A stretch of 10,992 bases of DNA from a virus (IMGVR_UViG_2684622669_000002:1-10992), one strand, 5' to 3'. Shown: positions 1 to 10,992, counted from the stretch's first letter. Notes: generated from the letters alone by a model not told the origin. Numbers and translations: made by a program.

Positions 1-12
1 CCGCAGATGGTT
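1..12. promoter_or_regulatory. Partial OL3-like cI operator, truncated by the window edge
   Basis: Window starts 'ccgcagatggtt', which matches the right-hand part of the lambda-type 17-bp operator TATCACCGCAGATGGTT as I recall it. Position left of the cI operon is as expected for OL. Confidence 0.45.
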
Positions 13-155
13 ATCTGTATGTTTTTTATATGAATTTATTTTTTGCAGGGGTGCATTGTTTGGTAGGTGAGAGATCTGAATTGCTATGTTTAGTGAGTTG
101 TATCTATTAATTTTCAAATAAATACAATTGGTTATGTGTTTTTTTGGGGGGGTTA

Positions 156-186
156 GGCAAAGAAAACCCGGCACTGAGGCCGGGTT
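156..186 (-). terminator. Rho-independent terminator ending the cI-cassette operon (tImm-like)
   Basis: On the minus strand, an 8-bp perfect stem (AACCCGGC / GCCGGGTT, + coords 165-172 and 179-186) with a 6-nt loop is followed by TTTTCTTTG. It begins 6 nt after the stop of the 192..563 ORF. Confidence 0.7.
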
Positions 187-191
187 GTGTG

Positions 192-563
192 TTACTTAAG
201 AACGAGTCCGTTTAAGGCATCAAGGATTTTGGAAACATAACTTCCAAAAATGTAGGCGCAAAATGCGAACACGAAACTGACAACGACCGCAGATGCCTTA
301 ATGGTGGTTTTTGCTGAGCTAATGCTTGTCTCAATACCTGACAGACGAGAATCAACAGATTTTATATCTGACTTTACCTCAGCGAGATCGCGCTTGATGT
401 ATTCAACATCAGACTCTAGCTTTGCAACTCTAGCCTCAAGCATGTTACCTCCGCCGTTTCCTCCACCATGCCGTGAGTATGCATCATCAGTGGAATAGTG
501 TCCAATTGGGCGAGATATGTTTTGATTTGGACGAAGCTGAGCAACCTTGTTATCTAAACTCAT
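192..563 (-). CDS. Hypothetical 123-aa tail-anchored coiled-coil membrane protein; distal gene of the rexAB-slot cassette, candidate membrane effector
   Basis: ORF with ATG at 563-561 and an AGGA about 10 nt upstream. Translation shows a polar N-terminus, a Gly-rich linker (GGGNGGGN), a heptad-like segment (LEARVAKLESDVEYIKRDLAEVKSDIKSVDSRL) and one C-terminal hydrophobic helix (AVVVSFVFAFCAYIFGSYV). No family recognised. Confidence 0.6.
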   Translation of the reverse strand: MSLDNKVAQLRPNQNISRPIGHYSTDDAYSRHGGGNGGGNMLEARVAKLESDVEYIKRDLAEVKSDIKSVDSRLSGIETSISSAKTTIKASAVVVSFVFAFCAYIFGSYVSKILDALNGLVLK

Positions 564-987
564 CGCGAACTGATCCTGTTATCTTCACGTCAAAAAACGA
601 ACTTTTTACATCAATTACTTCGCCTTTCTCAGGATTAACCAGTGATGCTCTAACTTCGAATATCCCAGGCTTGATAATTTTCACCCTTGGGAAGTTAATT
701 CTCATAGAAGTTGATACGATGGTTTCTCCATCGTTGGCTTCTGCTACCGTAAAAAACTTATGGTTGGAGTACAGTTTTGTGTCAATTGGTATCGGTATTT
801 CTTGAGCATTGAAAACCTCAATGCCTATGGAATATTTTTTTGTAGCCTTAAGGCAGATAAAAAAAGCGCCAAATGACAGATCCACTTCATGGGAGTCTTT
901 ATCCATTTCATAGATAAGAACTGGAGTTACGTGGTTGCCTTCATCCATCGCAATTGGAATGATATAAGAAATACGTTCTTTAATCAT
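550..987 (-). CDS. Hypothetical 145-aa protein; proximal gene of the rexAB-slot cassette
   Basis: ORF begins 7 nt after the cI stop codon and overlaps the next ORF by 14 nt. No hydrophobic helix and no catalytic motif I recognise. Alternating hydrophobic pattern suggests a beta-rich fold. Confidence 0.6.
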   Translation of the reverse strand: MIKERISYIIPIAMDEGNHVTPVLIYEMDKDSHEVDLSFGAFFICLKATKKYSIGIEVFNAQEIPIPIDTKLYSNHKFFTVAEANDGETIVSTSMRINFPRVKIIKPGIFEVRASLVNPEKGEVIDVKSSFFDVKITGSVRDEFR

Positions 988-994
988 TTACGTG

Positions 995-1711
<717 letters not shown>

Positions 1712-1808: not shown

Positions 1809-2009
1809 ATGGAACAACGCATAACCCTGAAAGATTATGCAATACGCTTTGGCCAAACCAAGACGGCTAAAGATCTCGGCGTATATCAAAGCGCGATTAA
1901 CAAGGCCATTCATGCAGGCCGAAAGATTTTTTTAACTATAAACGCTGATGGAAGCGTTTATGCGGAAGAAATAAAGCCCTTCCCAAGTAACAAAAAAACA
2001 ACTGCATAA
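1809..2009 (+). CDS. cro: Cro repressor
   Basis: 66-aa translation [64 protein letters not shown] matches lambda Cro apart from a couple of conservative substitutions. Strong RBS; sits immediately right of OR1/PR. Confidence 0.95.
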
Positions 2010-2146: not shown

Positions 2147-2446
2147 ATGACACAAGCAAGTTACAGCAAGCCAACACAGCGAGAAATTGATCGCGCAGAA
2201 ACAGATTTACTCATCAACCTGTCAACGCTTACCCAGCGCGGTCTGGCAAAGATGATTGGCTGTCATGAATCGAAGATAAGCAGAACGGACTGGAGATTTA
2301 TTGCTTCGGTCTTGTGTGCTTTTGGAATGGCATCAGACATCAGTCCGATTAGCAGGGCTTTTAAGTATGCGCTTGATGGACTCACCAATAAAAAACGCCC
2401 GGTGTGCAAGACCGAGCGTTCTGAACAAATACAAATGGAATTTTAA
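2147..2446 (+). CDS. cII: CII-like transcriptional activator
   Basis: 99-aa protein with a central HTH-like segment (QRGLAKMIGCHESKISR). C-terminus (LTNKKRP…TERSEQIQMEF) is almost identical to the lambda CII C-terminal region; N-terminal half differs. Position after cro/nutR fits. Confidence 0.8.
   Translation: MTQASYSKPTQREIDRAETDLLINLSTLTQRGLAKMIGCHESKISRTDWRFIASVLCAFGMASDISPISRAFKYALDGLTNKKRPVCKTERSEQIQMEF
2388..2418 (-). terminator. oop-like antisense terminator inside the 3' end of the cII-like gene
   Basis: On the minus strand, a 7-bp stem with one G-U pair (CGCUCGG…CCGGGCG), 9-nt loop, then UUUUUU. Same location and orientation as the lambda oop RNA terminator within cII. Confidence 0.45.
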
Positions 2447-2743: not shown

Positions 2744-3691
2744 ATGAGCAATACAGCAAAAATCTACGATTTCAGCGCCGCACACGAGCGCAGGAGCAAC
2801 AGGATGGAGAACCAGAAAACTGGTTACATTCCGTTGTACCGGAGCATTCTGAAACAGTCATGGGCGAAAGATGTTTATCTTCGCACCCTGTGGGAAAACC
2901 TTCTCCTGAATGCCGCCAGAAAGCCATACAAAGCGAATTTCAAAGGTCATGAATGGCATCTGCAACCCGGTCAACTGGTTGTGACAGCAGCTGATTTAGG
3001 TCTTCAGTTATGCGACAGGCATGGCAAGCCAGCAAGCCGCGATCAGGTTGAGCGGATGCTTCAGGTTTTTGTGAAAGAGGGGATGATCTCCATTGATGGA
3101 GAGAAGAAAAAAGGTCGTGTGATCACCATCACAAATTACCATGAATACGCTCAAAAAATGGACAATTTACCCGCACATGAAGCCGCACAAACAACCGCAC
3201 ATGATGCCGCACATGACGAAGCCAGTAACGGCGCGGCTTTCGGGGTACATGCCGCACATGAAAGCGCACATGAAGCCGCACAAACAACCGCACATCATGA
3301 ACAAGAAGGTATTAACAAGAATATAAATAATACCCCCCTACCCCCCAATGGGGGAGGCGATGGGCAGGTTAAACCTGAACGTCGCAAGGCAGAACGAATC
3401 GACTACGAATCCTTCCTGAACGCCTACAACACCGAAGTCGGTGACAGACTGCCACACGCTGTTGCGGTCAACGAGAAACGCAAACGCCGCCTGAAGAAAA
3501 TCATCCCGCAACTGAAAACGCCAAACGTGGACGGTTTCAGAGCGTATGTCAGGGCGTTTGTACATCAGGCCAAGCCGTTTTACTTCGGAGACAACGATAC
3601 TGGCTGGACGGCCGATTTTGATTACCTGCTGAGAGAAGATTCGTTAACGGGAGTTCGTGAAGGGAAGTTTGCAGACAGGGGGATTGCATGA
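2744..3691 (+). CDS. Replication initiator, O-like (N-terminal iteron-binding domain, repetitive linker, C-terminal domain)
   Basis: N-terminus [10 protein letters not shown]… resembles lambda O (MTNTAKILNF…). Iteron repeats lie inside the coding sequence, as in lambdoid O genes. Followed by a helicase gene with ATGA start/stop overlap. Confidence 0.85.
3169..3300. repeat. Origin iterons: about 8 copies of a CCGCACA(T/A)GA-type unit in two clusters, followed by an AT-rich segment
   Basis: Direct repeats visible at about 3170, 3182, 3195, 3206, 3250, 3263, 3275 and 3288. Followed by AT-rich 3301-3332 and a CCCCC-AAT-GGGGG hairpin at 3342-3354. Layout matches a lambdoid ori within the O gene. 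Confidence 0.7.
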
Positions 3692-5064
3692 AACAGGATA
3701 TCGAAGCGAGCGTTATCGGTGGCCTGCTGATTGGTGGATTAACACCAACTGCCAGTGACGTTCTGGCAACGCTGGAGCCGGAAGCGTTTTCAATTCCGCT
3801 CTACCGGAAAGCCTTCGAGGTTATCCGGAAGCAGGCGAGAAACAGAAACCTAATCGACGCGCTGATGGTTGCCGAGGCGTGCGGAGAGGAGCATTTCACG
3901 TCAATCCTGATGACCAGCAAAAACTGCCCGAGTGCCGCAAACCTGAAGGGATATGCCGGAATGGTCGCGGATAACTATCACCGCCGTCTGGTGCTGGAAA
4001 TCATGGATGAAATGCGTGAACCAATTCAGAGCGGAACCATCGACGCATCGAGTCAGGCGATGGACGAGCTTGTAAAGCGTCTTTCAGCCATCAGAAAGCC
4101 CCGTGACGAGGTTAAACCTGTACGGTTAGGGGAAATCATCACTGACTACACTGACACGCTTGACAGGCGTCTGAGGAACGGAGAAGAGTCAGATACCCTG
4201 AAGACCGGAATCGAAGAACTTGACGCCATCACCGGAGGGATGAACGCGGAAGACCTGGTGATTATCGCCGCTCGTCCTGGTATGGGGAAAACCGAACTGG
4301 CGCTGAAGATTGCCGAAGGCGTTGCAAGTCGTGTTATTCCTGGTTCTGACGTCCGGCGCGGGGTATTGATTTTCTCAATGGAAATGAGCGCATTGCAGAT
4401 TGCAGAGCGAAGCATTGCCAACGCCGGGAGGATGTCGGTTAGCGTACTGCGAAATCCTGCATCGATGGATGACGAGGGCTGGGCACGTGTTGCTAACGGC
4501 ATGAGTCAGCTTGCAGATTTGGATGTATGGGTAGTCGATGCTTCTCGGTTATCGGTCGAAGAAATACGCTCAATCGCAGAACGGCATAAGCAGGAAAATC
4601 CAAACCTGTCACTCATCATGGCGGATTATCTTGGCCTGATTGAGAAGCCGAAAGCAGACCGCAACGACCTCGCAATTGCTCACATCTCCGGAAGCCTGAA
4701 GGCGATGGCGAAAGACCTGAAAACGCCAGTTATCTCCCTGAGTCAGCTTTCGCGCGATGTTGAGAAGCGACCAAACAAACGCCCGACAAACGCAGATTTG
4801 CGTGATTCAGGAAGCATTGAGCAGGACGCAGACTCAATCATCATGCTCTATCGGGAAGCGGTATATGACGAGAACGGTAGCGCCGCGCCATTTGCTGAAA
4901 TCATCGTGACGAAAAACCGTTTTGGCTCGCTTGGTACGGTTTACCAGCGGTTCTGTAACGGACACTTTGTTGCATGTGACCAGGATGAAGCAAGACAGAT
5001 TTGCACAGCATCAAATGCACCTGCTGCGCGTGGCAGACGATATGCACAAGGGGCTGACGTATGA
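3688..5064 (+). CDS. DnaB-family replicative helicase (phage-encoded, P22 gp12-like)
   Basis: 458 aa. Walker A ARPGMGKT, DnaB-like motifs ([17 protein letters not shown]), N-terminal DnaB-type domain. Start overlaps the stop of the O-like gene. Confidence 0.9.
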
Positions 5065-5696: not shown

Positions 5697-6117
5697 ACTA
5701 AGAAGCCCCATCCATCAGCAGAACGCCATTCAAGCCATCCAGCAAATCCTTCCAGACCCAACCAAACCAATCGTAGTAACCATTCAGGAGCGCAACCGCA
5801 GCTTAGACCAGAATCGAAAGCTTTGGGCTTGCCTTGGTGACGTCTCGCGTCAGGTTGAATGGCATGGTCGATGGCTGGATGCAGAAAGCTGGAAGTGTGT
5901 GTTTACCGCAGCATTAAAGCAGCAGGACGTTGTTCCTAACCTTGCCGGGAATGGCTTTGTGGTAATAGGCCAGTCAACCAGCAGGATGCGTGTAAGCGAA
6001 TTTGCGGAGCTATTAGAGCTTATACAGGCATTCGGTACAGAGCGTGGCGTTAAGTGGTCAGACGAAGCGAGACTGGCTCTGGAGTGGAAAGCGAGATGGG
6101 GAGATCGGGCTGCATGA
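5677..6117 (+). CDS. ninB: NinB recombination protein (Orf-family, ssDNA-binding)
   Basis: 146-aa translation is near-identical to lambda NinB as I recall it (…LTFE.RSP.HQQNAI…LPDPTKPIVVTIQERNRSLDQNRKLWACLGDVSRQVEWHGRWLDAESWKCVFTAALKQQDVVPNLAGNGFVVIGQSTSRMRV…). Confidence 0.9.
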   Translation: MRKLTFELRSPIHQQNAIQAIQQILPDPTKPIVVTIQERNRSLDQNRKLWACLGDVSRQVEWHGRWLDAESWKCVFTAALKQQDVVPNLAGNGFVVIGQSTSRMRVSEFAELLELIQAFGTERGVKWSDEARLALEWKARWGDRAA

Positions 6118-6641
6118 CTATCAAATCAAATACGCCAGCACACGACAAGGACTGCTGGCAAACGCCGCTCTGGCTTTTTGATGCGCTGGATATTGAGTTT
6201 GGGTTCTGGTTGGATTCGGCAGCGAGCGACAAAAATGCTCTGTGCGCTCACTGGTTAACTGAGGCCGACGACGCGCTAAATTCTGAGTGGGTAAGCCACG
6301 GTGCAATCTGGAATAACCCACCGTACAGCAATATCAGGCCGTGGGTGGAAAAAGCCGCTGAGCAGTGCATACAACAGCGACAGACGGTAGTTATGCTTGT
6401 GCCAGAGGATATGTCAGTCGGATGGTTCAGCAAGGCTCTGGAGAGTGTCGACGAAGTTCGCATTATCACTGATGGACGGATTAATTTTATCGAACCATCG
6501 ACGGGGCTGGAGAAGAAGGGAAACAGCAAAGGCTCCATGCTGCTGATTTGGCGACCGTTCATCAGTCCTCGACGGATGTTTACTACCGTATCCAAAGCGG
6601 CATTGATGGCGATCGGGCAGGGCGTCAGGAGGGCTGCATGA
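6114..6641 (+). CDS. Phage DNA N6-adenine methyltransferase (phage Dam family)
   Basis: Start ATG at 6114 overlaps the ninB stop. NPPY catalytic motif ([10 protein letters not shown]). Size and position are typical of nin-region phage Dam proteins. The track ORF from 6054 is an upstream in-frame extension. Confidence 0.85.
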
Positions 6642-8070: not shown

Positions 8071-8360
8071 TGGCTAACCTACGCAAAGAAGCACGCGGCA
8101 GAGAATGCCAGGTACGTATTTACGGCGTATGCAATGGCAATCCTGAAACTACAGTTCTGGCACATTACCGGATGGCTGGAATTTGCGGAACGGGAATGAA
8201 GCCTGACGACCTGATCGGTGCATGGGCTTGTAGTGCGTGTCACGATGAAATCGACCGACGCACCCATAATCTCGACAACAAAGACGCCAGACTTTACCAC
8301 CTCGAAGGCGTGATCAGAACGCAGGCGATACTGCTGAAGGAGGGGAAGATTAAGCCATGA
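8070..8360 (+). CDS. ybcO: YbcO-like protein (DUF1364, Cys/His-rich putative nuclease)
   Basis: 96-aa protein with CxxxxxC … CxxC-H motif. Resembles DLP12 prophage YbcO as recalled. Sits before rusA as in DLP12-type nin regions. Confidence 0.7.
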   Translation: MANLRKEARGRECQVRIYGVCNGNPETTVLAHYRMAGICGTGMKPDDLIGAWACSACHDEIDRRTHNLDNKDARLYHLEGVIRTQAILLKEGKIKP

Positions 8361-8881
8361 ACGGTAAAAGATATCCAACACAAAAAGAAATCAATGAATT
8401 GTATGAATATAATAGCGAAACAGGTTTGTTTATATACAAGAGAAGAGAAAGTGTAAGAGAGTGCTGGAATTCAACATATGCCGGTAAGATTGCTGGTTCT
8501 ATAGATGAAAAAGGATACGTTCGTATATCTGTAAATAAAAAAGTTTGTCGAGCTCATAGAATCGCATGGATATCCTTTTATGGAAGTGAACCTGATGGGG
8601 AAATTGACCACATAAATGGAATTAAAAGCGATAACAGAATATGCAATTTGCGCGTTGTAGATGATAAACAGAACTCAAGGAACAGAAAAAAGCCTATTAA
8701 TAATCGCTCTGGAGTAATTGGTGTTGCCTACTATAAGAAGAATAAAAAGTGGGGCGCATATATAAACAGTGATAATAAAAAGATATTTCTTGGATTATAC
8801 GATGACATATCTCTAGCCGTTAATGCCAGAAAATTGGCGGAATCACGATTGGGCTATCACCATAATCATGGGAGAGGATAA
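8357..8881 (+). CDS. HNH endonuclease with AP2-type DNA-binding domain (homing-endonuclease-like)
   Basis: HNH_3-type motif (EIDHINGIKSDNRICNLRVV) followed by an AP2-like segment (SGVIGVAYYKKNKKWGAYI). Codon usage is visibly AT-rich compared with flanking genes. Confidence 0.8.
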   Translation: MNGKRYPTQKEINELYEYNSETGLFIYKRRESVRECWNSTYAGKIAGSIDEKGYVRISVNKKVCRAHRIAWISFYGSEPDGEIDHINGIKSDNRICNLRVVDDKQNSRNRKKPINNRSGVIGVAYYKKNKKWGAYINSDNKKIFLGLYDDISLAVNARKLAESRLGYHHNHGRG

Positions 8882-9244
8882 ATGGCAGAATACAGATTCA
8901 CACTTCCGTACCCACCGTCGCTGAACACCTACTGGCGAAGACGGGGAAGCCAATACTACATCAGCGATAAAGGCCAGAAATACCGAAAAGACGTTCAGCA
9001 AATCATCCGCCAACTTAAGTTAGACATTTTCACCAAATCACGACTCCGCATCAAAGTCATCGCAGACGTTCCAGACTCCCGCCGCCGCGACCTCGACAAC
9101 ATCCTGAAAGGTTTACTCGACTCCCTTATCCACGCCGGATTTGCGGAAGACGACGAGCAATTCGATGACATTCGCGTAATTCGTGGCGTGAAAGTACCAG
9201 GCGGAAGGCTTGGAATAAAAATCACCGAACTGGAGAACGCATGA
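8882..9244 (+). CDS. rusA: RusA Holliday junction resolvase
   Basis: 120 aa with the conserved RusA pattern (…DVPDSRRRDLDNILKGLLDSL…GGRLGIKITE…), comparable to E. coli RusA. Confidence 0.9.
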   Translation: MAEYRFTLPYPPSLNTYWRRRGSQYYISDKGQKYRKDVQQIIRQLKLDIFTKSRLRIKVIADVPDSRRRDLDNILKGLLDSLIHAGFAEDDEQFDDIRVIRGVKVPGGRLGIKITELENA

Positions 9245-9429
9245 ACGCCACAATTCAAACGATACCAGAGCTTCTTATCCAGACACGAGGCAATCAGACC
9301 GAAGTGGCGAGGATGCTTTCCTGCGCAAGAGGAACAGTGCTCAAGTACAACCGAGACAGCAAAGGCGAGCGTCATGTAATAGTTAACGGCGTCCTGATGG
9401 TCAAACAGGGCAAGAGGGGAAGACGATGA
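9241..9429 (+). CDS. ninH: NinH-like small DNA-binding protein
   Basis: 62 aa. IPELLIQTRGNQTEVARMLSCARGTVLKY matches lambda NinH (IPDMLVEAYGNQTEVARRLKCSRGTVRKY as recalled). Confidence 0.75.
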   Translation: MNATIQTIPELLIQTRGNQTEVARMLSCARGTVLKYNRDSKGERHVIVNGVLMVKQGKRGRR

Positions 9430-9914
9430 GCATAAGAGAACTAAACCTCACCAAAGAACAGCACGATTGGCTGAATGGCTGGCTTGAACTGTGGGGCGCA
9501 TGGGTTTATTCAGGCCGCCTGGAAAAGCGCATGAGCAGCGTAATAGCGAAGTTCATGGAGAGCGTAGAGCCGGGAAGAGTTATGACAAGGCCAATGTGTA
9601 ATGATGATGATGGAATGTTGATTTCTCAGGTCGTCGATTCCGTCATGTACATTGACAAGAAAGCCTTTGGCATCCTCCTCAGCTACTACGCTCATGGATC
9701 TTCCAAGCATGCCATTGCATCTTACTATCATCGTGTCGCAAGACCTCGCAAGATGTTATGCCGGGGCGGCGGGCGCATTCAAAAACCATCGCTCGCAACC
9801 TGTCGACGGGAAGTTGACGAAATCCTTAATGCCTCGTTGTTTATGATTTACCCGGTTCTTGATAGTGCGTTTAAAAACCGGAAACGTGTAGAGAAAATTA
9901 AACATGTAGCATAG
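9426..9914 (+). CDS. Late-gene antiterminator Q-like protein (probably phage-21-type)
   Basis: Last gene of the nin operon, immediately upstream of a TTGACA promoter element and the lysis genes, and adjacent to a phage-21-type S/R cassette. Call rests on position and size; sequence not independently matched. Confidence 0.6.
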   Translation: MSIRELNLTKEQHDWLNGWLELWGAWVYSGRLEKRMSSVIAKFMESVEPGRVMTRPMCNDDDGMLISQVVDSVMYIDKKAFGILLSYYAHGSSKHAIASYYHRVARPRKMLCRGGGRIQKPSLATCRREVDEILNASLFMIYPVLDSAFKNRKRVEKIKHVA

Positions 9915-9920
9915 AACGTG

Positions 9921-9952
9921 TTGACATCATTGAGCAAATGAGCAACACTATT
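9921..9952 (+). promoter_or_regulatory. Candidate late promoter PR'
   Basis: Consensus -35 TTGACA at 9921-9926, 7 nt after the Q stop. A-T-rich candidate -10 (cactat/actatt) 19-20 nt downstream, so spacing is not ideal. Called mainly on position. Confidence 0.35.
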
Positions 9953-9963
9953 GGCATAAGCTG

Positions 9964-10004
9964 CCGTTAGTGACTCTTAAGTTGCAACGGTGGATTTTTT
10001 TATT
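9964..10004 (+). terminator. Terminator-like stem-loop plus T-tract shortly downstream of the candidate PR'
   Basis: CCGTT (9964-9968) pairs with AACGG (9986-9990) and can extend inward with a bulge; TTTTTTTATTT follows at 9995-10005. Could be a short-leader tR' or a pause/processing structure. Confidence 0.35.
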
Positions 10005-10005
10005 T

Positions 10006-10080
10006 GGGTCAGTCGTATAAAGGTCATTACGGAAGGCTGTTAACCTTCTTATCGTGGTTCGAGTCCACGCTGTCCCGCCA
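10006..10080 (+). tRNA. tRNA-like gene, anticodon GTT (Asn), CCA encoded
   Basis: Hand-folded cloverleaf. Acceptor gggtcag/ctgtccc with one T-T mismatch. Anticodon stem gaagg/ccttc with loop ctGTTaa. T-arm cgtgg-ttcgagt-ccacg. 3' gCCA. D-stem is only 3 bp. Confidence 0.5.
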
Positions 10081-10085
10081 AACAT

Positions 10086-10161
10086 GCTGGTTTAGCTCCA
10101 ATGGTAGAGCAGTCGCCTTGTAAGCGAATGGGTAGCGGTTCAAGTCCGTTAACCAGAACCA
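10086..10161 (+). tRNA. tRNA-like gene, anticodon TGT (Thr), CCA encoded
   Basis: Hand-folded cloverleaf. D-arm gctc-caatggta-gagc. Anticodon loop ctTGTaa. T-arm agcgg-ttcaagt-ccgtt. Acceptor gctggtt/aaccaga with a mismatch at the first pair. 3' aCCA. Confidence 0.55.
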
Positions 10162-10168
10162 TAACTGA

Positions 10169-10229
10169 GCCGTAGCCACTGGCTATCCTGAATTCATCAG
10201 TGATAGTTACGCTGCGGCCTTCTTTTTTC
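10169..10229 (+). terminator. Structured region with T-tract downstream of the tRNAs (candidate tR')
   Basis: Imperfect long hairpin (gccgtagc … gctgcggc with internal ctatc/gatag pairing) followed by ccttcttttttcc. Lies about 300 nt downstream of the candidate PR' and before the holin RBS. Confidence 0.35.
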
Positions 10230-10279
10230 CCCTTCCCAATATAAGAACTACGCAATCCGTTACTGGCGGAGGCGTTGCT

Positions 10280-10495
10280 ATGAAATCAATGGACAAAATC
10301 TCAACTGGCATTGCCTACGGAACATCTGCTGGTAGTGCGGGATACTGGTTTTTGCAGTGGTTGGATCAGGTCAGTCCGTCACAGTGGGCTGCGATTGGAG
10401 TGCTTGGAAGCCTTGTCTTGGGTTTTCTCACTTATCTGACAAATCTTTATTTCAAGATTAAAGAAGATAAGCGTAAGGCTGCGAGAGGTGAATAA
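10280..10495 (+). CDS. S: Phage-21-type pinholin S (dual-start MKSM motif)
   Basis: 71-aa translation [60 protein letters not shown]…KAARGE matches S21 as recalled. Two TM segments. GGAGG RBS 8 nt upstream. Confidence 0.95.
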
Positions 10496-10992
10496 TGTCG
10501 CCGTCATTACGCAAGGCTGTTGCAGCTGCTATTGGTGGTGGGGCTGTTGCCATAGCGTCTGTGCTCATCACTGGTCCAGGTGGTAACGATGGTCTGGAAG
10601 GTGTCAGCTACATACCATACAAAGATATCGTTGGCGTATGGACTGTATGTCACGGGCACACCGGAAAAGACATTATGCCCGGTAAAACGTATACCGAAGC
10701 AGAATGCAAAGCCCTCCTGAATAAAGACCTTGCCACGGTCGCCAGACAAATTAACCCGTACATCAAAGTCGATATACCGGAAACAACGCGCGGCGCTCTT
10801 TACTCGTTCGTTTACAACGTGGGCGCTGGTAATTTCAGAACATCGACGCTTCTTCGCAAAATAAACCAGGGTGATATCAAAGGCGCATGTGACCAGCTAC
10901 GTCGCTGGACATACGCTGGCGGTAAGCAATGGAAAGGGCTGATGACCCGTCGTGAGATTGAGCGTGAAGTCTGTTTGTGGGGGCAACAATGA
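10495..10992 (+). CDS. R: SAR endolysin R (phage-21-type lysozyme with N-terminal signal-anchor-release domain)
   Basis: 165 aa. N-terminal Gly/Ala-rich weakly hydrophobic SAR segment ([23 protein letters not shown]), then a T4-lysozyme-like catalytic domain. Start overlaps the holin stop (TAATG). Confidence 0.95.

What the first reader, a model, noticed from the sequence alone, without database searches (positions are those of the whole stretch)
192..563. Distal cassette protein looks like a tail-anchored coiled-coil membrane effector
The translation shows a polar N-terminus, a flexible Gly/Asn linker (GGGNGGGN), about 40 residues of heptad-like repeat, then one hydrophobic helix near the C-terminus with a short tail (SKILDALNGLVLK). 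Coiled-coil plus C-terminal TM anchor is shared by small membrane-disrupting proteins such as the XhlA-type prophage lysis proteins. If correct, this is the execution module (membrane permeabilisation or depolarisation) of the cassette. An internal Met at the start of the coiled-coil (MLEARVAKL…) could give a shorter isoform.
Basis: inference. Interest (0 to 1): 0.7.

Follow-up and report, generated by a model that had tools for sequence, protein, structure and literature searches.

The report
Repressor-linked coiled-coil membrane protein cassette
This prophage gene encodes a small tail-anchored coiled-coil membrane protein that sits with a partner gene right behind the phage repressor, where lambda keeps its Rex exclusion genes. 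It belongs to a large unstudied family built from swappable modules, probably makes two protein isoforms, and is a good but untested candidate for an anti-phage membrane effector.

Summary
ORF 192..563 (-) encodes 123 aa: a disordered N-terminus, a Gly/Asn linker, a 49-residue heptad helix (13/14 a/d positions hydrophobic; 0/20,000 shuffles match), one TM helix and a near-invariant 13-residue tail.

It is the distal gene of an overlapping two-gene cassette (partner 550..987) lying 7 nt after a lambda-type cI and ending at the tIMM-like terminator. That is the slot of lambda rexAB.

The XhlA reading is only partly right. The architecture matches and NCBI uses that name, but the Pfam score is below cutoff (21.6 vs 34.7 bits; 0/103 relatives reach it). 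Genuine XhlA genes sit in lysis cassettes, whereas this prophage's own holin and lysozyme are about 10 kb away.

New points:
- The family is large (1436 representatives).
- It sits behind many different repressors.
- It is paired with at least three unrelated partner classes. Here the partner is a confident Ig-like beta-sandwich.
- Recombination junctions fall at the linker.
- A GGAGG precedes the internal ATG in 34/42 distinct sequences (13.6 expected), which supports an 83-aa short isoform.

Best reading: a Rex-like prophage exclusion or abortive-infection module with a membrane effector. The function is inferred, not shown.

The parts
192..563 (-). Long-isoform CDS of the coiled-coil/TM protein (123 aa plus stop). 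Its start overlaps the partner's 3' end by 14 nt.
   Evidence: PHROG 6136 at 2.9e-46; exact protein on 454 contigs
468..563 (-). Variable N-terminal extension (residues 1-32), predicted disordered. It is always inherited together with the partner gene.
   Evidence: AF2 pLDDT 45-52. N-extension identity never separates from partner identity in 630 comparisons. eps34 DNA homology covers the partner plus this region only.
444..467 (-). Gly/Asn linker (residues 33-40, GGGNGGGN). Its codons carry the internal Shine-Dalgarno-like GGAGG (452..448, 4 nt before the ATG) and a second GGAGG at 464..460.
   Evidence: GGAGG lies 3-11 nt before the internal ATG in 34/42 distinct junctions against 13.6 expected. 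Linker Gly codons are 33% GGA against 15% background.
192..443 (-). Putative short isoform (Met41-Lys123, 83 aa, plus stop): coiled coil plus TM plus tail. This is also the unit that is exchanged independently by recombination.
   Evidence: the Enterobacter loci share DNA only from the linker to the terminator
297..443 (-). Heptad coiled-coil helix (residues 41-89), including the superfamily signature MLEARVAKLESDVEYIKRD.
   Evidence: shuffle test; helix; motif conserved across 93/104 representatives
234..296 (-). Single transmembrane helix (residues 90-110, ASAVVVSFVFAFCAYIFGSYV), with invariant F106, G107 and Y109 and near-invariant F99, C102 and Y104.
195..233 (-). Conserved amphipathic C-terminal tail SKILDALNGLVLK (residues 111-123). 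I113, N118 and L122 are invariant.
   Evidence: hydrophobic moment 0.43
550..987 (-). Partner gene (145 aa): a cytoplasmic Ig-like beta-sandwich protein with no TM segment and no known family.
995..1708 (-). Lambda-type cI repressor (HTH_3 plus Peptidase_S24). Its stop lies 7 nt before the partner's start, so the three genes form one operon.
165..186 (-). Intrinsic terminator hairpin with a T-tract, 5 nt after the stop codon. It is the equivalent of lambda tIMM and closes the cI-partner-effector operon.
   Evidence: homology of window 1-186 to lambda 35640-35826 and to the annotated Timm of HK544

Best explanation
The ORF encodes a tail-anchored inner-membrane protein. Its order is a disordered N-terminal extension, a Gly linker, a cytoplasmic coiled coil, one TM helix and a short conserved tail. 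It is the last gene of a cI-partner-effector operon that ends at the tIMM-like terminator, so it is made in the lysogen together with the repressor, as lambda rexA-rexB are. The gene is a fusion of two exchangeable modules. The first is the partner gene plus the N-terminal extension. The second is a self-contained unit with its own Shine-Dalgarno sequence and ATG that encodes the coiled coil and TM. Two proteins are therefore probably made: a 123-aa long form that carries the partner-linked extension and an 83-aa short form. The proposed mechanism is inferred. The beta-sandwich partner binds the extension of the long form and acts as sensor or regulator. The coiled coils drive mixed oligomers of long and short forms in the membrane. 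On infection by another phage the assembly is released or activated and compromises the inner membrane (depolarisation or a holin-like lesion), which aborts the infection. This would be a Rex-like exclusion or abortive-infection module with an effector that is XhlA-like in architecture. Shown: architecture, operon position, family breadth, modular exchange and codon-level selection for the internal ribosome-binding site. Inferred: partner/N-extension binding, N-in/C-out topology, membrane damage and anti-phage function.
For: Architecture. Operon: a 7-nt gap after cI, a 14-nt overlap between the two genes, and a terminator 5 nt after the stop. Window 1-186 matches the DNA just downstream of lambda rexB. 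Conserved placement behind diverse repressors: every context and eps34. Among 48 distinct upstream genes, 30 have HTH_3, 23 have Peptidase_S24 and 14 have Phage_CI_repr. This slot holds known abortive-infection systems (rexAB, bstA) and is a recognised mosaic hotspot (PMC8585504). Conserved membrane module with variable partners: 259 of 630 comparisons have the C-module >60% identical with partners <35% identical. In 11, the same partner carries a swapped C-module. Unrelated partner classes exist (beta-sandwich, CxxC..CxxC Zn-ribbon-like, and a ~90-aa class). DNA homology breakpoints fall at the linker or within the first ~17 codons after the internal ATG. Internal start: an ATG lies just before the coiled coil in 42 of 50 distinct junction sequences. 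GGAGG lies 3-11 nt upstream in 34 of those 42, against 13.6 expected under synonymous resampling, and 0 of 20,000 simulations reached 34. HK544c103 shows the same feature. The TM helix and tail are far more conserved than a passive anchor needs. The partner is a confident non-enzymatic binding-type fold. The XhlA-type relatives that share the architecture act on the membrane together with holins (PMC6316719).
Against: There is no phenotype, expression or localisation data for this family. No paper was found. Neither protein, nor any alternative partner, matches any PADLOC v2 defence model. XhlA-type proteins are reported as harmless on their own, and no two-TM holin is encoded in the cassette. 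The N-extension/partner linkage could reflect physical adjacency rather than binding. Charges flanking the TM are balanced (+1/+1), so topology is not settled by the positive-inside rule. The SD-like motif could also act as a translational pause site rather than a start site. In the window itself the spacing is short (4 nt, against 7 nt in most relatives). The loci compared are not phylogenetically independent.
Confidence: 0.5

Rival explanations
1. It is a true XhlA-type holin accessory protein that serves the prophage's own lysis. It would cooperate with the prophage's S21-type holin to time or complete host lysis after induction.
For: Sub-threshold Pfam XhlA similarity in the window protein and in 24 of 39 relatives. 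BLASTP against SPP1 gp24.1 gives E = 1e-5 over the coiled coil and TM. The architecture is the same, and the short isoform has the same size (83 aa) as SPP1 gp24.1. NCBI names it XhlA.
Against: It is below the Pfam cutoff here, and 0 of 103 representatives reach it. hhalign aligns only 27 coiled-coil columns. The residues invariant in the six genuine XhlA proteins (NTTWI.R before the TM) were not aligned. All six genuine XhlA genes examined lie beside a holin and an endolysin. This gene lies in the repressor operon, about 10 kb from the prophage's holin and lysozyme, and in that position behind many repressor types. A transcript from the repressor promoter is a lysogenic one, not a late lytic one.
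Confidence: 0.12
2. It is a non-lethal superinfection-exclusion protein. A membrane protein made in the lysogen would block DNA entry of incoming phages, as P22 SieA or HK97 gp15 do, without killing the cell.
For: It is a prophage-expressed inner-membrane protein in a known exclusion slot. It has a strongly conserved TM helix and outward-facing tail that could contact a conserved host or phage component. [quoted passage not shown]
Against: Most of the protein, and the whole partner, are predicted to be cytoplasmic. A variable cytoplasmic partner plus a conserved membrane module is more typical of sensor-effector systems. There is no sequence similarity to known Sie proteins in PHROGs or PADLOC.
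Confidence: 0.15
3. It is a toxin-antitoxin-like or addiction module, or a modulator of the lysis-lysogeny switch. The partner would neutralise a small membrane toxin, stabilising the prophage or biasing the switch, with no role against other phages.
For: The pair is tightly coupled, with the soluble protein first and the small membrane protein second. RexA and RexB themselves influence the lambda switch (bioRxiv 10.1101/2021.04.19.439022, abstract). An excess of RexB suppresses Rex, which shows that stoichiometry matters for such modules.
Against: The partner has no DNA-binding or protease features. At least three unrelated partner classes with one conserved membrane module are hard to explain as antitoxins. 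There is no direct evidence either way.
Confidence: 0.13
4. It is a passive membrane tether. The coiled-coil/TM protein would only anchor the variable partner at the inner membrane, and the activity would reside in the partner.
For: The N-extension always travels with the partner, and the coiled coil could act as a spacer.
Against: The TM helix and tail are the most conserved parts of the protein, with many invariant residues. So is the start of the coiled coil. The partners are small and lack catalytic features. A separate short isoform without the extension would make little sense for a tether.
Confidence: 0.1

Closest known systems
XhlA of B. subtilis PBSX / SPP1 gp24.1 (Pfam PF10779 'Haemolysin XhlA')
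   Same: A small protein with an N-terminal coiled coil and a single C-terminal TM helix. The short isoform (83 aa) is the same size as gp24.1. There is weak sequence similarity (Pfam E = 2.4e-4; BLASTP E = 1e-5, 23% identity).
   Different: It scores below the Pfam cutoff, and the profile-profile match is limited to 27 coiled-coil columns. It has a 40-residue N-extension, a Gly linker and a conserved tail that XhlA lacks. It is encoded in the repressor operon with a beta-sandwich partner, not beside a holin and an endolysin. The hosts are Gram-negative.
Lambda RexA/RexB exclusion system
   Same: The same slot: after cI and before tIMM, co-transcribed with the repressor. Gene order is a soluble protein first and a membrane protein last. 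The literature describes RexB as a membrane ion channel activated by the cytoplasmic sensor RexA (PMC8585504).
   Different: No sequence similarity was detected to any PADLOC defence model. From general knowledge, RexB is a polytopic membrane protein, whereas this protein has a single TM helix and a coiled coil. The partner is 145 aa and all-beta. No exclusion phenotype is known.
BstA (prophage BTP1)
   Same: A prophage abortive-infection gene located immediately downstream of the repressor, presumably sharing its promoter, with that architecture conserved across hosts (PMC8585504).
   Different: The paper describes BstA as a single protein acting at sites of phage DNA replication, with a DNA-based self-immunity element. 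There is no membrane effector and no homology.
In-frame internal-start pairs: P22 SieB/Esc and lambda holin/antiholin S105/S107 (recalled from the literature, not verified here)
   Same: One ORF gives two proteins from two in-frame starts. The shorter or longer form modulates the other in a membrane or abortive-infection function. Here a conserved SD plus ATG inside the ORF predicts the same arrangement.
   Different: The two forms would differ by 40 residues that track a separate partner protein. There is no sequence relationship. Translation from the internal start has not been demonstrated.
HK544 c104/c103 (= E. coli O157 Sakai ECs2991/ECs2992) cassette
   Same: A two-gene cassette in the same cI-tIMM slot of a lambda-immunity phage. 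c103 hits the effector HMM (E = 1.7e-7). It has the same plan: an N-domain, a DDGGDD linker, a Met preceded by GGAGG, a coiled coil and a C-terminal TM helix.
   Different: It has a different N-terminal domain (~70 aa), a different upstream partner (93 aa), and a longer coiled coil with a different TM module. It is also uncharacterised.

Membership tests
Pfam PF10779 XhlA | Score at or above the curated gathering cutoff (34.7 bits) | tested here: not met
   21.6 bits, E = 2.4e-4. The best of 39 relatives is E = 8.3e-6. 0 of 103 superfamily representatives reach E <= 3e-8, which approximates the cutoff. The genuine member SPP1 gp24.1 scores 53 bits.
Pfam PF10779 XhlA | Small protein with a coiled coil followed by a single C-terminal TM helix | tested here: met
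   the short isoform is 83 aa, as is gp24.1
Pfam PF10779 XhlA | Conserved pre-TM motif of genuine members (N-T-T-W-I-x-R, invariant in six Bacillus phage XhlA proteins) | tested here: not met
   Invariant columns in A5. The window has S-A-K-T-T-I-K-A-S at the equivalent place, and hhalign did not extend the alignment beyond the coiled coil.
Pfam PF10779 XhlA | Encoded in a lysis cassette next to a holin (XhlB type) and an endolysin | tested here: not met
   All six genuine XhlA loci lie beside a holin and an endolysin. The window gene is in the cI operon. The prophage's P21-type holin and lysozyme are at 10280-10992.
Pfam PF10779 XhlA | Lethal or lytic only together with the partner holin | not testable with these tools
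   Property reported in PMC6316719; it requires expression experiments
Lambda RexAB-type exclusion system | Sequence homology to RexA/RexB | tested here: not met
   No significant PADLOC hit for either protein. DNA homology to lambda is confined to window 1-186 (downstream of rexB) and to cI.
Lambda RexAB-type exclusion system | Two genes between cI and tIMM, expressed with the repressor: a soluble component plus a membrane component | tested here: met
Lambda RexAB-type exclusion system | Excludes superinfecting phages through loss of membrane potential | not testable with these tools
   No phenotype data found
Known anti-phage defence systems (PADLOC-DB v2.0.0) | Match to any model of a known or candidate defence protein | tested here: not met
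   Effector best hit E = 0.0046 (CorA-like; coiled-coil noise). The partner has none. Six alternative partner or effector variants have none.
Dual-start (internal in-frame initiation) membrane proteins | Conserved ribosome-binding site and start codon inside the ORF | tested here: met
   34 of 42 distinct junctions have GGAGG 3-11 nt before the internal ATG against 13.6 expected, and 0 of 20,000 simulations reached 34. Actual initiation there has not been shown.
New superfamily defined here (Gly linker - Met - EARVAKLESDVEYIKRD coiled coil - C-terminal TM) | Signature motif plus C-terminal TM helix plus a tightly coupled upstream partner gene | tested here: met
   The window protein is the query. 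Of 104 small representatives, 93 have the motif and 94 have a C-terminal TM helix. A coupled upstream ORF is present in nearly all 121 loci.

The most novel reading that the evidence does not exclude
The window shows one member of a widespread, undescribed family of plug-and-play prophage immune modules. A conserved membrane effector unit has its own ribosome-binding site and start codon, and consists of a coiled coil plus a TM helix. Recombination at a Gly-linker junction fuses it in frame behind interchangeable sensor units: a partner gene plus a matching N-terminal docking peptide. The partner types include beta-sandwich, zinc-ribbon-like and others. The resulting long and short isoforms would form a built-in regulator/effector pair, like antiholin and holin, that triggers membrane failure when a foreign phage is sensed.
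Probability: 0.3. Interest if true: 0.8.

Novelty: new variant of a known kind. Interest (0 to 1): 0.6.

Why it matters
The interval next to the prophage repressor is where lambda carries rexAB and BTP1 carries bstA. After more than 60 years the mechanism of Rex is still poorly understood. This cassette offers a much simpler two-protein system in the same slot: 145 aa plus 123 aa, with a single TM helix. It is common in E. coli and Salmonella prophages, including the prophage of the EPEC reference strain E2348/69. It comes with natural domain-swap variants and a directly testable isoform prediction. If it is a defence system, it would add a large family (over a thousand 50%-identity clusters across Proteobacteria and beyond) that current defence catalogues miss. 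It would also show how sensors and membrane effectors are recombined at a defined junction. The work also flags that the database name 'hemolysin XhlA' is not supported by the curated model and is misleading for these proteins.

Tried and rejected
- NCBIfam scan: only noise-level coiled-coil hits, so it does not explain NCBI's XhlA name.
- PADLOC for the pair and for six variant proteins: nothing usable.
- PDB sequence search with the partner profile: nothing.
- The search for related loci with the diverse partner alignment A3 failed because it had no conserved stretch. The effector alignment A4 was used instead.
- The afdb50 fold library was unavailable.
- The weak T4BSS_DotH_IcmK hit of the partner (E = 0.009) was dismissed as chance.
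- Spearman correlations between partner, N-extension and C-module identities were weak (0.17-0.29) and are not independent observations. Only the count-based pattern is used.
- A promoter-like site inside the ORF (504..476, minus strand, 9/12) was considered as a lambda pLit analogue. It was rejected as evidence because the number of such sites equals the shuffle expectation.
- The positive-inside rule does not resolve topology (+1/+1).
- Literature searches by XhlA plus anti-phage, rex-slot hotspot, tail-anchored defence and protein accession numbers found no study of this pair.
- The DefensePredictor preprint mentions TM and coiled-coil systems, but I could not link any of them to these sequences.
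- The SieB/Esc precedent could not be verified in the held papers and is marked as recalled.

Full report
**1. What the window is**

The window is the early region of a lambdoid prophage. Its features are as follows.
- A lambda-type cI repressor at 995..1708 (-), with HTH_3 plus Peptidase_S24.
- A small divergent ORF at 1809..2009 (+) in the position where HK544 has cro. I did not scan it.
- A cII gene (2147..2446), a replication O gene (2744..3691) and a Dam methylase (6054..6641), all with Pfam support. A 458-aa ORF at 3688..5064 was not scanned; the matching E2348/69 gene is annotated as a replicative DNA helicase.
- An HNH endonuclease (8357..8881) and a Q antiterminator (9426..9914).
- Two tRNA genes.
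- A P21-type holin (10280..10495) and a phage lysozyme (10495..10992).

Window 1-186 is 93% identical to lambda 35640-35826, which is the DNA just downstream of rexB. The finding's ORF is therefore the distal gene of a two-gene insert that occupies exactly the position of rexA-rexB.

**2. Observation check**

- Residues 41-89 show a very clean heptad. 13 of 14 a/d positions are L/I/V/M/F, against 1 of 35 other positions. None of 20,000 shuffles reached this.
- There is one hydrophobic helix, residues ~90-110, with a Kyte-Doolittle mean of 2.1. It is followed by the tail SKILDALNGLVLK.
- AlphaFold2 predicts residues 1-39 without structure and a single helix over 40-121.

**3. Operon structure**

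The cI stop lies 7 nt before the partner's ATG (987). The partner (550..987) overlaps the effector's start by 14 nt. An intrinsic terminator (186..165, minus strand) follows the effector's stop by 5 nt. There is no room for internal signals, and the promoter scan found nothing above chance. The three genes should therefore be transcribed together with the repressor. This follows directly from the sequence; expression itself was not measured.

**4. Is it XhlA?**

NCBI calls close relatives 'hemolysin XhlA (family protein)'. The evidence on that label is as follows.
- The Pfam XhlA model hits at E = 2.4e-4 and 21.6 bits, below the 34.7-bit cutoff.
- 24 of 39 relatives hit at E < 0.01, with a best E of 8.3e-6.
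- None of 103 superfamily representatives reaches E <= 3e-8, which approximates the cutoff.
- NCBIfam has no model for the protein.
- I took SPP1 gp24.1, described as an XhlA homologue in PMC6316719, and confirmed it is a genuine Pfam member at 53 bits. I then collected five more Bacillus phage XhlA proteins.
- Pairwise BLASTP against gp24.1 gives 23% identity and E = 1e-5 over the coiled coil and TM.
- The profile-profile comparison gives only 84% probability over 27 coiled-coil columns.
- The motif invariant in the genuine set (NTTWI.R) is not matched.
- All six genuine genes lie beside a holin and an endolysin.

So the protein looks like XhlA in architecture and size, but family membership fails the curated score, the motif test and the context test. 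According to PMC6316719, XhlA and gp24.1 are not harmful alone and kill only together with the second holin. That limits how much the analogy says about a self-sufficient membrane-disrupting role.

**5. The partner**

The 145-aa upstream protein has no TM segment and no significant Pfam, NCBIfam or PADLOC match. It belongs to PHROG 5893, of unknown function.
- A profile search found 87 clusters. All are unnamed, and those that name an organism are Enterobacterales.
- These include subfamilies only 20-30% identical to the window protein, and those also sit upstream of effector homologues.
- AlphaFold2 gives a confident all-beta model (pLDDT 91.8, pTM 0.86).
- BFVD matches are uncharacterised phage proteins of similar size.

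This is a binding-type fold with no sign of catalysis.

**6. Context across genomes**

I collected 121 loci with an effector-like ORF. Nearly all have a tightly coupled upstream ORF, with a gap of about -56 to +8 nt.
- In all precomputed contexts, the order is repressor, then a 141-156 aa protein with no Pfam family, then the effector. The repressors are either S24-type or HTH-only. eps34 gp46-gp45-gp44 has the same order.
- Of 48 distinct proteins encoded just upstream of the partner, 30 have HTH_3, 23 have Peptidase_S24 and 14 have the phage CI repressor HTH.

The cassette therefore rides behind many different repressor alleles. PMC8585504 notes that this cI-N interval is a mosaic hotspot. 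It holds the abortive-infection systems rexAB (lambda) and bstA (BTP1), which presumably share the repressor promoter.

**7. Modularity**

An iterated profile search assigns 36 distinct upstream ORFs to the beta-sandwich family. The remaining 33 candidate upstream ORFs did not match; a few are probably spurious overlapping ORFs. The clear non-sandwich classes are as follows.
- A CxxC...CxxC zinc-ribbon-like class of ~100-130 aa, found in Shewanella, Vibrio, Pseudoalteromonas, Desulfarculaceae and others.
- A class of about 90 aa.
- A few helical proteins.

None of these has a Pfam or PADLOC match.

Among the 36 beta-sandwich pairs there are 630 pairwise comparisons.
- In 259, the effector's C-terminal module is >60% identical while the partners are <35% identical.
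- In 11, the same partner (>60% identical) carries a different coiled-coil/TM module.
- The N-terminal extension never separates from its partner (0 cases either way).

The DNA shows the same pattern, using coding-strand coordinates in which the internal ATG is at 558.
- eps34 is homologous over 12-554 only: the partner plus the N-extension, ending 4 nt before the internal ATG.
- A Salmonella locus is homologous over 12-607.
- Two Enterobacter loci are homologous only from 518 or 532 to the terminator.
- HK544 shares only the terminator.

Most junctions fall in the Gly linker; the Salmonella one extends about 17 codons past the internal ATG. Physical adjacency alone could explain why the N-extension follows the partner, so binding between them is an inference.

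**8. Internal start**

In 42 of 50 distinct junction sequences, an ATG lies within 8 codons before the RVAKLE motif. In 34 of those 42, a full GGAGG lies 3-11 nt upstream, most often 7 nt.
- Resampling synonymous codons with each locus's own codon usage predicts 13.6 such cases. None of 20,000 simulations reached 34; the maximum was 25.
- At the level of distinct 7-residue contexts, the count is 21 of 29 against 8.8 expected.
- GGA makes up 33% of linker Gly codons, against 15% in long ORFs of the same loci.
- HK544c103 has a different N-domain and a different TM module, yet it also has GGAGG 7 nt before its post-linker ATG.
- The N-extension reading frame is open all the way back to the partner's stop in essentially every locus, so the long form is also real.

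Both a 123-aa and an 83-aa product are therefore likely. The caveats are these. The sequences are related to one another. SD-like motifs can also cause translational pausing. The spacing in the window itself is only 4 nt.

**9. Family breadth**

An exhaustive profile search of 1.84 billion cluster representatives found 1436 proteins at E <= 1e-3, 108 at <= 1e-10 and 14 at <= 1e-30. Of the 104 small proteins among the top 150:
- 94 have a C-terminal TM helix;
- 93 have the RVAKLE-type motif;
- 72 have the pattern of a Gly run, then Met, then RV.

The consensus is GGGGGG-x-x-MEARVAKLESDVEYIKRDI-x-EIK. This is a coherent, unnamed superfamily; PHROGs 6136, 3556 and 6324 are all of unknown function. 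Within the window's subfamily, the TM helix and tail are almost invariant: F106, G107, Y109, I113, N118 and L122 are invariant, and F99, C102, Y104 and D115 nearly so. That is more conservation than a passive anchor needs.

**10. Interpretation**

What is shown:
- a tail-anchored coiled-coil membrane protein;
- the last gene of the repressor operon, in the rex slot;
- two recombining modules;
- an internal ribosome-binding site under selection;
- a non-enzymatic beta-sandwich partner;
- a large family that always has a coupled upstream partner of variable type.

What is inferred:
- The partner, through the N-extension, senses or regulates.
- The coiled coil drives oligomers of long and short forms.
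- Activation damages the inner membrane and aborts infection by another phage, as proposed for RexA-RexB.

The isoform pair recalls holin/antiholin and P22 SieB/Esc; I recall both from the literature and did not verify them here. I put this reading at about 0.5. The rivals are a true lysis accessory role (0.12), non-lethal blocking of DNA entry (0.15), a toxin-antitoxin or switch-modulating role (0.13) and a passive tether (0.10).

**11. Novelty**

No paper in the held library links this family or these accession numbers to any function, and PADLOC v2 does not contain it.
- The kind of thing (a prophage-encoded, repressor-linked module with a membrane component) is known.
- The family itself is new. 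So are its modular junction, the predicted dual start, and the finding that the database label 'hemolysin XhlA' is unsupported.
- The full cassette occurs in 14 of 5426 complete E. coli genomes, including EPEC E2348/69.
- The exact protein is on hundreds of assembled contigs, so strains for testing are easy to obtain.

Noticed in passing
L002 1182..2021 (phage HK544 c103/c104; = E. coli O157 Sakai ECs2992/ECs2991 per the record's note): A different two-gene cassette sits in the same cI-tIMM slot of a lambda-immunity phage. Its distal protein (183 aa) has the same plan as the window's effector: an N-domain, a DDGGDD linker, a Met preceded by GGAGG, a coiled coil and a C-terminal TM helix. It hits the effector HMM at E = 1.7e-7. 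Its TM module resembles the 'swapped' module in P0064 and P0067.
   Followed up: partly
L005, L006, L008, L009, L012, L015, L018, L019, L023, L024, L068, L094-L098, L108, L112 (ORF immediately upstream of the effector homologue): A second, unrelated partner class of ~100-130 aa has two CxxC pairs and looks like a zinc ribbon. It is paired with effector homologues in Shewanella, Vibrio, Pseudoalteromonas, Cellvibrionaceae, Desulfarculaceae, Deferribacteraceae and enterobacterial prophages. It has only sub-threshold Zn-ribbon Pfam hits and no PADLOC hit.
   Followed up: partly
L089, L100, L113, L115, L116, L120 (upstream ORFs of ~90-113 aa): A third partner class (motif CVDAYADAFGYSSFGE...ISFFQHVTEW...IATIRMPE) is paired with longer effector variants. 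It has no family match.
   Followed up: partly
P0196, P0201, P0205, P0206, P0212 and about 30 others: Long proteins (450-2365 aa) match the effector profile in 5-14 separate stretches each. They appear to carry tandem copies of a similar coiled-coil unit. I did not examine their nature (structural phage proteins, or coiled-coil noise).
   Followed up: no
one of the 103 representatives in alignment A7: A single superfamily member matches Pfam CCDC90-like (PF07798) at E = 7.9e-11. From general knowledge that family also combines a coiled coil with a C-terminal TM helix. A possible distant link was not explored.
   Followed up: no
window 10006-10161 (+): Two tRNA genes (Asn-GTT and Thr-TGT) lie between the Q antiterminator gene and the holin gene. 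Several listed minus-strand ORFs there (9948-10255) are therefore probably spurious.
   Followed up: yes
window 8357-8881 (+): A free-standing HNH_3 endonuclease gene (E = 1e-16) is inserted in the Nin region just upstream of the 120-aa ORF at 8882..9244. It may be a homing endonuclease.
   Followed up: partly
window 3129-3330, inside the replication O gene (2744..3691): The O protein contains a His/Ala-rich repeated segment (…[16 protein letters not shown]…[14 protein letters not shown]…), and long ORFs are open in several frames on both strands. This suggests repeated DNA, possibly origin iterons. It was not analysed.
   Followed up: no
window 476-504 (-): A weak sigma-70-like site (TGGACA-17-CATACT, 9/12) lies inside the N-extension coding region, upstream of the internal start. 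It recalls lambda's internal pLit promoter for rexB. The number of such sites in the region equals the shuffle expectation, so it is not evidence.
   Followed up: partly
partner protein C-terminus (window 550-575) and alignment A3: The partner's last residues keep a conserved acidic-aromatic-basic ending (DEFR, EWK or EWR) across subfamilies that are only ~20-25% identical. This holds even where the genes do not overlap. The tail has low model confidence (pLDDT ~60) and might be a functional motif.
   Followed up: no
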